Assembly: GCA_965203355.1 (NCBI GenBank)
Contig: OZ241889.1
Span: forward strand, 64,001 to 128,000
Length of the DNA stretch: 64,000 bases
Direction: 5' to 3'
Origin: Candidatus Latescibacterota bacterium
GTDB taxonomy: Bacteria > Latescibacterota > UBA2968 > UBA8231
Shown: one piece after another, positions 46,177 to 46,459 of the stretch
How positions within the stretch are numbered: position 1 is the stretch's first letter
How the letters are laid out: each line of letters starts with the position of its first letter
The notes under the pieces: model-generated
The model's database searches: none
What the model was told of the DNA's origin: nothing
The model's input: the letters and a program-made list of their open reading frames with translations, nothing else
Program-made: the position numbers and the translations under genes

Positions 46177-46459
46177 ATGAGTGTTGAACGAGATGCTTTA
46201 GGCCGCCGCAAAGCCCGGCGCCCCGTGCGCTATACCCCGCAGATAGCCGTTGGGCTGGACGCCGACGCCCGCGCCCGCGTGGAAGCACTGAAGGTATTCC
46301 CATCGACGACACGACTTGGGGCCCGACGCCCGCGCCCGCGTGGAAGCACTGGCCGACCGCTGCGAGCTGTCTATCGCCGAGGTGGTGCGCCGTTGTGTGG
46401 CTTCGGGCTTGCCGCGCCTTGAGGCCGCCCAGCGCAAGACAAAGGAAGGGGTGCTATGA
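46177..46459 (+). pseudogene. Ribbon-helix-helix (CopG-like) gene interrupted by a 61 bp insertion
   Basis: Removing one repeat+spacer restores ..PQIAVGLDADARARVEALADRCELSIAEVVRRCVASGL..* (73 aa); SD AAGGGAG. Confidence 0.75.
46262..46351 (+). CRISPR. Single repeat-spacer-repeat (29/32/29 bp), candidate off-target I-E integration rather than a canonical array
   Basis: Exact repeats ccgacgcccgcgcccgcgtggaagcactg at 46262-90 and 46323-51; spacer aaggtattcccatcgacgacacgacttggggc. Confidence 0.55.

What the first reader, a model, noticed from the sequence alone, without database searches (positions are those of the whole stretch)
46262..46351. Candidate natural off-target CRISPR spacer integration that knocked out a gene
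Seen: an exact 29 bp duplication around a unique 32 bp segment (61 bp gain) frameshifts an RHH gene, and removing it restores a clean 73 aa ORF. The duplicated target CCGACGCCCGCGCCCGCGTGGAAGCACTG matches the E. coli-type I-E repeat GTGTTCCCCGCGCCAGCGGGGATAAACCG (recalled from memory) at 18/29 positions in register, including the CCCGCGCC-GCG-GGA core and the final G. Known: I-E Cas1-Cas2 adds 61 bp units (28 bp duplication + 33 bp starting with the PAM-derived G) and can integrate at repeat-like off-target sites. Inference: a fixed de novo mini-array, i.e. Cas1-Cas2 acting as an insertional mutagen on a mobile-element regulator. No cas genes lie in this window.
Basis: partly seen in the sequence, partly recalled or inferred. 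Interest (0 to 1): 0.85.

Follow-up and report, generated by a model that had tools for sequence, protein, structure and literature searches.

The report
Stray CRISPR spacer insertion broke a gene
A 61-base insertion that disrupts a small regulator gene in an uncultured sponge-associated bacterium has the hallmarks of a CRISPR spacer pasted at the wrong place, a rarely documented natural accident of bacterial adaptive immunity.

Summary
An exact 29-bp direct duplication (46262-46290, 46323-46351) flanks a unique 32-bp segment (46291-46322). It frameshifts a small ribbon-helix-helix (RHH) gene.

- The window comes from a Candidatus Latescibacterota-like genome.
- Type I-E systems occur in 13 of 75 genomes of its order. 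Their arrays have 29-nt repeats, a 61-bp period and 32-nt spacers in 845 of 856 cases. No other CRISPR type found there has this geometry.
- The 32-nt insert is identical to part of a chromosomal Ldh_2-family dehydrogenase gene in the closest relative. It is conserved in 24 of 75 genomes.
- In all 14 copies read, AAG, the I-E PAM as I recall it, lies immediately 5' of the match, in the expected orientation.
- The duplicated target matches the lineage's I-E repeat at 17-18 of 29 positions in register, within the top 0.007-0.04% of window 29-mers.
- Homologues (74-82% identical) lack the insert.
- Contigs from two independent studies carry the junctions.

Two points are not shown: an I-E system in the window's own genome (none is held), and that the gene regulates a mobile element. 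This is a new, unusually well-documented member of a known kind (off-target, "neo-CRISPR" integration).

The parts
46177..46261 (+). 5' part of the small RHH gene, upstream of the integration target (ATG at 46177)
   Evidence: MSVERDALGRRKARRPVRYTPQIAVGL... aligns to residues 1-29 of the uninterrupted homologue P0002.
46262..46290 (+). Copy 1 of the duplicated target ('pseudo-repeat'). Read as 28 nt of native gene sequence plus G at 46290, which is probably the PAM-derived first base of a 33-nt prespacer.
   Evidence: exact 29-nt duplication; 17-18/29 in-register identity to lineage I-E repeats; position 29 of real repeats is spacer-derived.
46291..46322 (+). 32-nt spacer, a copy of part of a chromosomal Ldh_2-family dehydrogenase gene of the lineage
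   Evidence: 0 mismatches to G001 and G041; 3 or fewer mismatches in 24 of 75 genomes; AAG immediately 5' in 14 of 14 copies read; the same gene with the same flanks is present in runs X3/X4.
46323..46351 (+). Copy 2 of the duplicated target (native sequence; the gene continues from here)
46352..46459 (+). 3' part of the RHH gene, now in the +1 frame relative to the ATG at 46177; stop at 46457-46459
   Evidence: ADRCELSIAEVVRRCVASGLPRLEAAQRKTKEGVL*; 74-82% identical to P0002/P0001. P0002 matches RHH_1 (PF01402) at 22.7 bits, cut-off 20.5.

Best explanation
A type I-E Cas1-Cas2 integrase, present in this bacterium or in a recent ancestor, captured a 33-nt prespacer from the cell's own chromosome. 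The source was an Ldh_2-family dehydrogenase gene, and the prespacer was cut next to an AAG PAM so that it began with the PAM's G. The integrase inserted it not at the leader-proximal CRISPR repeat but into a repeat-like 28-nt stretch inside a small RHH regulator gene. Staggered strand transfer at the two ends of that stretch, followed by gap repair, duplicated the 28 nt. Because the next native base is also G, the duplication looks 29 nt long. The result is a two-'repeat', one-spacer unit of exactly 61 bp. The +61 bp shifts the reading frame within helix 1 of the RHH domain and inactivates the gene. Shown: the anatomy; the source of the spacer, its PAM and its orientation; the likeness of the target to the repeat; the I-E geometry in the lineage; and the uninterrupted homologues. 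Inferred: that Cas1-Cas2 was the enzyme, that the host had an I-E system at the time, and that the unit is not processed into a working crRNA.
For: (1) Geometry. The unit is 29+32 = 61 bp. In I-E arrays of relatives the repeat is 29 nt, the period is 61 bp in nearly all units, and 845 of 856 spacers are 32 nt. Other CRISPR types in the order have 32-nt repeats with 64-69-bp periods or 37-nt repeats with 72-80-bp periods.
(2) Spacer source. The insert matches a single-copy site in 24 of 75 genomes of the order at 3 or fewer mismatches, and exactly in G001 (the closest relative) and G041. BLAST gives 34/34 identity (G+32+C). The site lies in a 352-aa ORF that matches Ldh_2 at E 8e-100.
(3) PAM and orientation. 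In 14 of 14 copies read, the 3 nt immediately 5' of the match are AAG, on the strand that puts the PAM-side end of the spacer against the 3' end of copy 1. A contig in runs X3 and X4 shows the same gene with ...CAAGAA|G before and ACATCG... after the 34 shared nt (table 7).
(4) Target likeness. In register the target matches 17-18 of 29 positions of the ..TGTTCCCCGC...CGCGGGGATGAACCG repeat class, but only 8-10 of 29 as the reverse complement. Only 9-56 of 127,944 window 29-mers score as high, and those counts include the two copies themselves.
(5) Repeat position 29 varies within real arrays (G in 94-100% of units of that class) while positions 28 and 1 are invariant. The 28+33 mechanism therefore applies in this lineage.
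(6) I-E genes are present in the lineage: Cas7e (PF09344) in 13 of 75 genomes, and this repeat class in 14 of 75.
(7) The insert is not ancestral. P0002 (75 aa) and P0001 (51 aa) read ...RVEALADRYGLSI... without it. The 10 distant homologous frames in 3 of 167 phylum genomes are uninterrupted.
(8) The insert is not an assembly artefact. A contig in X5 (study P3) bridges spacer to copy 2 to downstream (46290-46386, 0 differences). Contigs in X3 and X4 (study P2) carry both junctions, at depths of 75 and 72.8 against 71.1 for the flanking 15.7-kb contig.
Against: - No whole genome is held for the window, so an I-E locus in this organism is not shown. The window itself has no cas gene: in a tblastx against the fetched cas loci, the only HSPs of 50 bits or more were unrelated flank genes.
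- The two relatives with an identical protospacer, G001 and G041, have no Cas7e and no repeats of this class. G001's only Cas1 sits beside a 37-nt-repeat array.
- Nothing leader-like lies upstream of the target. The 60 nt upstream are 73% GC against 30-42% in seven real leaders, and I saw no shared motif by eye.
- Identity of target to repeat is only 59-62%.
- The AAG PAM of this lineage's I-E system is not measured independently. Only the last base (G) is supported. The single canonical spacer with a known protospacer has a CCC flank.
- In X3 and X4 the junction contigs have 29 letters on the spacer side, short of the tool's own 31-letter rule for counting a contig as bridging.
Confidence: 0.9

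Rival explanations
1. Templated insertion during replication or double-strand-break repair. The polymerase switched to the Ldh_2-family gene, copied about 32 nt and returned, with no Cas1-Cas2 involved.
For: The insert is a copy of another chromosomal locus of the same lineage. One base is shared at each junction (G at 46290, C at 46323), which could serve as microhomology. No cas gene has been shown in this genome.
Against: Template switching does not create a 28/29-bp target-site duplication. It also gives no reason for the insert to be exactly the modal I-E spacer length (845 of 856), to start right after AAG in the repeat-compatible orientation, or to land in a sequence that is in the top 0.007-0.04% for in-register likeness to the I-E repeat.
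Confidence: 0.04
2. Insertion by another staggered-cutting element or enzyme that happens to give a 29-bp duplication, such as a casposase-like or other integrase, or a tiny non-autonomous element.
For: A target-site duplication is the generic mark of transposase/integrase action (general knowledge). Cas1 of other types is common in the order: 30 of 75 genomes.
Against: The 32-nt insert has no terminal inverted repeats and is single-copy coding sequence of a housekeeping-type gene. The other CRISPR types of the order would give duplications of 32 or 37 nt and units of 64-80 bp. Casposon duplications are about 14-15 bp (recalled, not tested).
Confidence: 0.03
3. Assembly or sequencing artefact: a chimeric join in a metagenome-assembled sequence.
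For: The spacer shares 34 nt with another gene present in the same samples, so de Bruijn graphs branch there. Logan contigs break inside the spacer (tables 7-8). The relatives are MAGs and the window is probably one too.
Against: A chimera would not produce an exact 29-bp duplication flanking exactly 32 nt. The junction sequences occur with 0 differences in contigs from two different studies (X3/X4 and X5), at depths like the flanking chromosome.
Confidence: 0.02

Closest known systems
Off-target ('non-canonical') spacer integration by E. coli type I-E Cas1-Cas2, which generates 'neo-CRISPR' loci (Nivala, Shipman & Church 2018, Nat Microbiol 3:310). The paper is not held. Its content is known here only from citing passages and from recall.
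   Same: The subtype (I-E), the unit size (61 bp), duplication of a repeat-like chromosomal target, and an insertion outside any array. Citing passages say that off-target integrations were detected in the E. coli genome when Cas1-Cas2 was overproduced, that off-target integration can spawn novel arrays in E. coli, and that there was 'circumstantial evidence' in two other species.
   Different: This is a natural event in an uncultured Latescibacterota-like genome, without engineered over-expression. The spacer's chromosomal source, AAG flank and orientation are identified. The target is a coding sequence that is frameshifted, with uninterrupted homologues in hand. No leader-like sequence is present. 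The cas locus of the host itself has not been seen.
Isolated or orphan CRISPR arrays proposed to arise by off-target spacer acquisition (Shmakov et al. 2020, CRISPR J 3:535). The paper is not held. It is known here from a citing passage and from recall.
   Same: A CRISPR-like unit far from cas genes, explained by integration into a repeat-like sequence.
   Different: Here the array is the minimal possible one (two pseudo-repeats, one spacer). The 'repeat' is only 59-62% like the real one and folds poorly, so it is a scar rather than a likely working array.
Self-targeting spacers in canonical CRISPR arrays
   Same: The spacer derives from the host's own chromosome. A canonical example was seen in passing in relative G002.
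   Different: The window's spacer has a consensus AAG flank, which would be auto-immune in a working array. It sits between degenerate pseudo-repeats inside a gene, not in an array.
Ectopic repeat units that yield crRNA-like regulators (CreTA/CreA; abstract of PMC9458426 as listed)
   Same: One or two repeat-like elements outside an array.
   Different: CreA uses genuine, conserved repeats and partial target complementarity, and is conserved next to cas genes. Here the pseudo-repeat is ordinary coding sequence and the spacer is fully complementary to its source. There is no evidence of function.

Membership tests
Product of type I-E Cas1-Cas2 spacer integration (off-target) | Duplication of the target equal to the repeat length (28 nt plus a PAM-derived 29th base) | tested here: met
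   Exact 29-nt duplication. Lineage I-E repeats are 29 nt, with position 29 variable and positions 28 and 1 invariant.
Product of type I-E Cas1-Cas2 spacer integration (off-target) | Insert of spacer length (32 nt, or 33 with the PAM base), giving a 61-bp unit | tested here: met
   32-nt insert. 845 of 856 canonical I-E spacers in relatives are 32 nt, and the modal period is 61 bp.
Product of type I-E Cas1-Cas2 spacer integration (off-target) | Insert copied from a protospacer flanked by the PAM, with the PAM-proximal end next to the 3' end of the first repeat copy | tested here: met
   AAG lies 5' of the match in 14 of 14 copies read, in the correct orientation. The same flank is seen in the source samples. 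That AAG is the canonical I-E PAM is established knowledge from E. coli. For this lineage only the final G is supported directly.
Product of type I-E Cas1-Cas2 spacer integration (off-target) | Target sequence resembles the cognate repeat, in register | tested here: met
   17-18 of 29 positions against 8-10 of 29 for the reverse complement. Only 9-56 of 127,944 window 29-mers score as high. Matches cluster at positions 7-11 and 15-22, the stem regions of the real repeat.
Product of type I-E Cas1-Cas2 spacer integration (off-target) | A type I-E cas1-cas2 in the same genome | not testable with these tools
   No genome is held for the window. In the order, Cas7e is found in 13 of 75 genomes and this repeat class in 14 of 75, including six genomes with 1-3 repeat copies, at least three of them (G004, G047, G048) without Cas7e. 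It is absent from G001 and G041.
Product of type I-E Cas1-Cas2 spacer integration (off-target) | Leader-like or IHF-type context upstream of the integration site | tested here: not met
   The 60 nt upstream are 73% GC against 30-42% in seven real leaders, and no shared motif was seen by eye. Whether off-target events need a leader I could not check: the primary paper is not held.
Functional CRISPR array | Repeats that form the Cas6e hairpin, adjacent cas genes or a leader, and crRNA production | tested here: not met
   The pseudo-repeat folds at -7.2 kcal/mol (z 0.18), the real repeat at -14.3 (z -2.5). There are no cas genes in the window. crRNA production is not testable here.
RHH_1 (CopG/Arc/MetJ-type ribbon-helix-helix) DNA-binding proteins | Match to PF01402 above the cut-off | tested here: inconclusive
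   Homologue P0002 scores 22.7 bits (cut-off 20.5) and P0001 scores 20.4. Of the window's own pieces, the N-terminal piece P0003 was re-scanned at E up to 1 and matched no family; the C-terminal piece, scanned only at E 0.01 or below, gave PSK_trans_fac at 18.5 bits, below its cut-off.

The most novel reading that the evidence does not exclude
The two-pseudo-repeat unit is more than a scar. It is transcribed from the RHH gene's own promoter and used in trans by an I-E Cascade of the host. That would make it a nascent CRISPR locus, or a crRNA-like guide against the cell's own Ldh_2-family dehydrogenase gene (self-regulation, or auto-immunity that forced loss of the I-E interference genes). It would capture the first step of CRISPR-array birth, and its cost, in a wild symbiont population.
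Probability: 0.05. Interest if true: 0.85.

Novelty: new member of a known kind. Interest (0 to 1): 0.62.

Why it matters
Off-target integration by Cas1-Cas2 has been shown in E. coli over-producing the integrase. In nature, according to the passages I could read, it has so far been supported only circumstantially.

In this case every diagnostic element can be read directly from sequence: the unit size, a repeat-like target in register, a spacer with a known source, a PAM-type flank, the correct orientation, and uninterrupted homologues. It shows three things:
- The CRISPR adaptation machinery can act as an insertional mutagen on host genes in wild populations.
- It takes PAM-flanked self DNA.
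- Such events can persist and spread; the junction sequences occur in samples of two studies.

It also gives a simple search image for surveying genomes for the rate of such events and for the origin of new or orphan arrays: X28/29-N32/33-X28/29, with the insert matching elsewhere next to the PAM.

Tried and rejected
- Whole genome of the window: none is held, so the host's own cas content could not be examined.
- Plasmid collection, blastn of 45184-47201: no match.
- Spacer in viral contigs: 0 exact matches. A viral source is therefore unsupported; the source found is chromosomal.
- 29-mer target in metagenome contigs: 0 matches.
- RHH alignment A1 in metagenome contigs and in viral contigs: no relatives. 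No same-species uninterrupted allele was found.
- RHH C-piece in 5 close relatives: no match. In the order: only distant matches of 37-48%.
- Synteny: all 39 related loci stop matching at 46045-46064, so relatives cannot show the empty site at this locus.
- Read laying: no joint that skips exactly 61 bp was reported in any of the 4 runs. One joint (46268 to 46357, skips 88, letters between unknown, shorter side 26) appears in all four runs. It is probably a paralogue or another allele and is unresolved. All four runs are contigs, which drop rare variants, so this says nothing about absence of an uninterrupted allele. Raised depth over 46376-46497 suggests related copies of the gene's 3' part in the community, but depth of contigs is no copy number.
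- PAM of the lineage from canonical spacers: BLAST of 856 spacers against the fetched loci and the window gave only 16-24-nt chance matches. Searching the 169-repeat G002 array against the order (only 4 candidates scored per genome) and against 5 genomes gave one self-matching spacer, with a CCC flank. The AA of AAG is therefore not confirmed independently.
- Leader likeness: none.
- Promoter scan of 45900-46700: 0 consensus sigma-70 sites, so transcription of the unit is not supported by that scan.
- tblastx of the cas loci against the window: only unrelated flank genes at 50 bits or more.
- RHH homologue near I-E arrays: none in the fetched loci.
- Primary papers (Nivala 2018, PMC5832444; Shmakov 2020, PMC7757702): not held. 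One literature search for natural gene disruption by ectopic spacers returned only genome-editing papers, so I make no claim about what is or is not in print beyond searches.

Full report
**1. The observation**

The window carries CCGACGCCCGCGCCCGCGTGGAAGCACTG at 46262-46290 and again, without a single difference, at 46323-46351. A 32-nt segment (46291-46322) lies between the copies. That segment occurs nowhere else in the 64 kb, even with 3 mismatches allowed. A scan of the whole window for exact direct repeats of 18 nt or more at spacings of 55-69 bp found only this pair.

The unit lies inside a small ORF that starts at ATG 46177. The ORF reads MSVERD...DARARVEAL, then leaves the frame and stops at 46420-46422. 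The sequence after copy 2 (46352-46459) reads ADRCELSIAEVVRRCVASGLPRLEAAQRKTKEGVL* in the +1 frame.

**2. The gene and the ancestral state**

A search of 5.8 billion proteins with the 47-aa C-terminal piece found two relatives:
- P0002: 75 aa, 74% identical over the whole query.
- P0001: 51 aa, 82% identical.

Both read ...RVEALADRYGLSI... without interruption. In the alignment the window's N-piece and C-piece both place their DARARVEAL on the same columns of P0002. The homologues therefore have one copy of the target and no insert.

P0002 matches RHH_1 (PF01402) at 22.7 bits against a cut-off of 20.5. The insertion falls in the first helix of the ribbon-helix-helix domain. Ten more distant frames (36-40% identity), in 3 of 167 genomes of the phylum, are also uninterrupted, at 69-149 aa.

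I could not find a same-species empty allele:
- The 29-mer is absent from the metagenome collection.
- The family alignment found no relatives in the metagenome or viral collections.
- All 39 syntenic loci of relatives stop matching the window at 46045-46064, just after the upstream gene.

**3. Organism and context**

The upstream neighbour gene (45184-46044) is 77-90% identical at the protein level to genes of MAGs labelled Candidatus Latescibacterota, a few of them labelled Gemmatimonadota. The closest is L001/G001, with 92% DNA identity over 10 kb.

Against G001, the window's left part lies in the 2.34-2.36 Mb region from which locus L001 was fetched, while 48737-64000 maps to 3.588-3.609 Mb on the other strand. 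The stretch 46046-48737 is thus a lineage-specific rearrangement junction. It holds:
- the RHH gene;
- a phosphoribosyltransferase-like fragment on the minus strand;
- a frameshifted AAA-ATPase gene of a multi-copy family.

Nothing shows that the RHH gene regulates a mobile element. A CusCBA-type metal efflux operon follows.

**4. Type I-E in the lineage**

Among the 75 genomes held for the order of G001:
- Cas1 (PF01867) is found in 30.
- The I-E backbone protein Cas7e (PF09344) is found in 13, including close relatives G002 and G003.

I fetched the DNA next to 15 I-E loci. Fourteen held arrays; my crude consensus gave 29-nt repeats for twelve of them (22 and 28 nt for the other two), and all fourteen had a modal period of 61 bp, with up to 169 repeats. 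Of 856 spacers extracted, 845 are 32 nt.

Two repeat classes exist:
- (A/G)TGTTCCCCGC...CGCGGGGATGAACCG;
- G(G/T)TTCCCCCGC...GCGGGGATAGACCC.

Within arrays, positions 1 and 28 never vary but position 29 does. It is G in 94-100% of units of the first class and C in 76-96% of the second. As in the E. coli model, then, the 29th base comes with the spacer. The true duplication is 28 nt and the insert is 33 nt.

Other CRISPR types in the order have 32-nt repeats with 64-69-bp periods or 37-nt repeats with 72-80-bp periods. Only I-E fits a 61-bp unit.

The first repeat class occurs in 14 of 75 genomes. Eight have large arrays. Six have only 1-3 repeat copies, and at least three of these (G004, G047, G048) lack Cas7e. 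This points to frequent loss of I-E loci in the clade.

**5. Where the spacer came from**

A search of the 75 genomes with the 32-nt insert (3 or fewer mismatches) hit exactly one site in each of 24 genomes and none with the reversed control pattern. The match is perfect in G001 and G041. BLAST extends it to 34/34: the G before and the C after are shared with the window.

In G001 the site lies in a 352-aa ORF that matches Ldh_2 (malate/L-lactate dehydrogenase family) at E 8e-100. This is an ordinary chromosomal gene.

I read the flanks of 14 copies. In all 14 the three bases immediately 5' of the match are AAG. AAG is the canonical I-E PAM from E. coli, which is established knowledge and not measured here for this lineage. 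Its G is the base that ends up as repeat position 29.

The strand is also the expected one. The PAM-side end of the spacer abuts the 3' end of copy 1, in the same orientation in which the target resembles the repeat.

The public runs that hold the window's DNA also hold this gene. In X3 and X4 a contig matches only 46290-46323 and continues with ...GTCAAGAA before and ACATCGTCGAGG... after (table 7). The protospacer with its AAG is therefore present, identical, in the same samples.

**6. The target**

In register and without gaps, the 29-mer matches the first repeat class at 17-18 positions and the second at 15. As the reverse complement it matches at only 8-10. Among all 127,944 29-mers of the window (both strands), 9-56 reach the target's score against first-class repeats, a fraction of 7e-5 to 4.4e-4, and those counts include the two copies themselves.

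The matches fall on CCCGC (positions 7-11) and CGCG-GGA (15-22). These are the two halves of the repeat's palindrome.

As RNA the pseudo-repeat folds only weakly: -7.2 kcal/mol, z 0.18, against -14.3 kcal/mol and z -2.5 for the real repeat. Cas6e-type processing therefore looks unlikely. That is inference.

There is no leader-like sequence. The 60 nt upstream are 73% GC against 30-42% in seven real leaders.

**7. Is the sequence real?**

Four Logan-contig runs from two studies hold the stretch.
- In X5 (study P3) a 97-nt contig covers 46290-46386 with no difference. It bridges spacer to copy 2 to downstream with more than 31 letters on each side.
- In X3 and X4 (one sample, study P2), contigs 46243-46319 and 46294-46386 carry both junctions with no difference. 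They have only 29 letters on the spacer side, below the tool's bridging rule. Their depths are 75 and 72.8 against 71.1 for the flanking 15.7-kb contig.

The contigs break inside the spacer because its 34 nt are shared with the dehydrogenase gene.

No joint skipping exactly 61 bp was reported. A joint skipping 88 bp (short side 26 letters, letters between unknown) occurs in all four runs and is unresolved. Contigs cannot show that a rare variant is absent.

**8. Mechanism**

The simplest account that fits every feature is an off-target type I-E Cas1-Cas2 integration:
- a 33-nt prespacer is cut from the cell's own chromosome next to AAG;
- the two strand transfers occur 28 nt apart at a repeat-like site in the RHH gene;
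- gap repair duplicates the 28 nt.

Because the base after the target is also G, the duplication appears to be 29 nt.

The rivals each leave something unexplained:
- Template switching or repair synthesis explains the copied insert, but not the duplication, the exact length, the PAM, the orientation or the repeat-like target.
- Another integrase or mini-element is not supported by any terminal repeats or further copies.
- A chimeric assembly would not make an exact duplication, and the junctions recur in a second study.

I put the Cas1-Cas2 reading at about 0.9. The main gap is that an I-E system in this very genome could not be examined. The two relatives with an identical protospacer lack one. 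The event may be old relative to a later loss of the system. A working I-E system with an AAG-flanked self spacer would be auto-immune if the unit were processed, so either poor processing or loss of interference would explain its survival. That too is inference.

**9. Comparison with what is known**

The phenomenon is known. Citing passages state:
- Off-target integrations elsewhere in the E. coli genome were detected when Cas1-Cas2 was over-produced (PMC7054753).
- Off-target integration can spawn novel arrays, and there was circumstantial evidence in two other species (bioRxiv 10.1101/148544).
- Off-target integration may be deleterious in vivo, yet might generate CRISPR loci (PMC6698737).
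- Off-target acquisition is one of three proposed origins of isolated arrays (PMC13142298, citing Shmakov et al. 2020).

I saw only those passages. The two primary papers are not held, and supplements were not consulted.

The present case is a new natural member of that kind, with unusually complete internal evidence and a visible cost (a frameshifted gene). It is not a functional CRISPR array by any test I could run.

**10. Verdict**

- Observation: confirmed.
- Interpretation: supported, except for the 'mobile-element regulator' label and the untested presence of I-E in the host itself.
- Novelty: new member of a known kind.
- Interest: 0.62.

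Noticed in passing
window 46046-48737: This stretch is a rearrangement junction relative to the closest relative G001. 36000-46045 lies in G001's 2.34-2.36 Mb region (the range of locus L001) and 48737-64000 maps at 3.588-3.609 Mb on the other strand. The 2.7 kb between has no DNA match in 5 relatives, apart from the spacer and the AAA-ATPase family.
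   Followed up: partly
window 47116-48620 (minus strand): Two overlapping ORFs (47688-48620 and 47116-48138) in different frames look like one frameshifted AAA-ATPase gene (AAA_22/AAA_16 hits). The family has one to five further copies per relative at 64-76% DNA identity. One copy lies about 1.4 kb from the distal end of the I-E array of G003 (L073:6581-7999).
   Followed up: partly
L062 (G002:C1:66000-78000), about the 55th spacer from the leader; L119 (G002:C1:2567635-2567666): A canonical I-E array spacer of relative G002 matches G002's own chromosome 32/32. It also matches G003, G005 and G001 at 91-94%. The flank is CCC rather than AAG, and in that one array unit the 29th repeat base is C rather than G. 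This directly shows that position 29 comes from the protospacer.
   Followed up: yes
G004:C60:28162-28249; G021:C1:629570-629657; G047, G048, G017, G049: These genomes hold only 1-3 copies of the I-E repeat class at 61-bp spacing, at least three of them (G004, G047, G048) without Cas7e. They may be remnants of lost I-E arrays or further mini-arrays.
   Followed up: no
L109 (G018:C3:6045092-6045813) and G018:C3:4240413-4240795: Distant homologues of the RHH protein occur as tandem runs of 2-4 small genes in one genome of the order. Another homologue (L108, G014) lies near a gene whose N-terminus looks like a phage terminase small subunit. That is a reading by eye of the output, not a tested match.
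   Followed up: no
window 14290-14707: A 152-bp tandem repeat (2.8 copies, 87% matches) lies directly after the 1440-aa surface-protein-like ORF, which has He_PIG, FlgD_ig and Por_Secre_tail domains.
   Followed up: no
window 46456-46548 and 46545-47201 (minus strand): A 30-aa ORF overlaps the RHH stop codon (ATGA) and has no family match. The convergent 218-aa ORF has only weak phosphoribosyltransferase-domain hits. It also has a far-below-cut-off hit to an effector family (24 bits against a cut-off of 1000), which I take as noise. Loose ends at 46458 in all four runs, at 46463 in X3, and at 46609 and 46614 in several runs suggest this stretch recurs in other contexts in the community.
   Followed up: no
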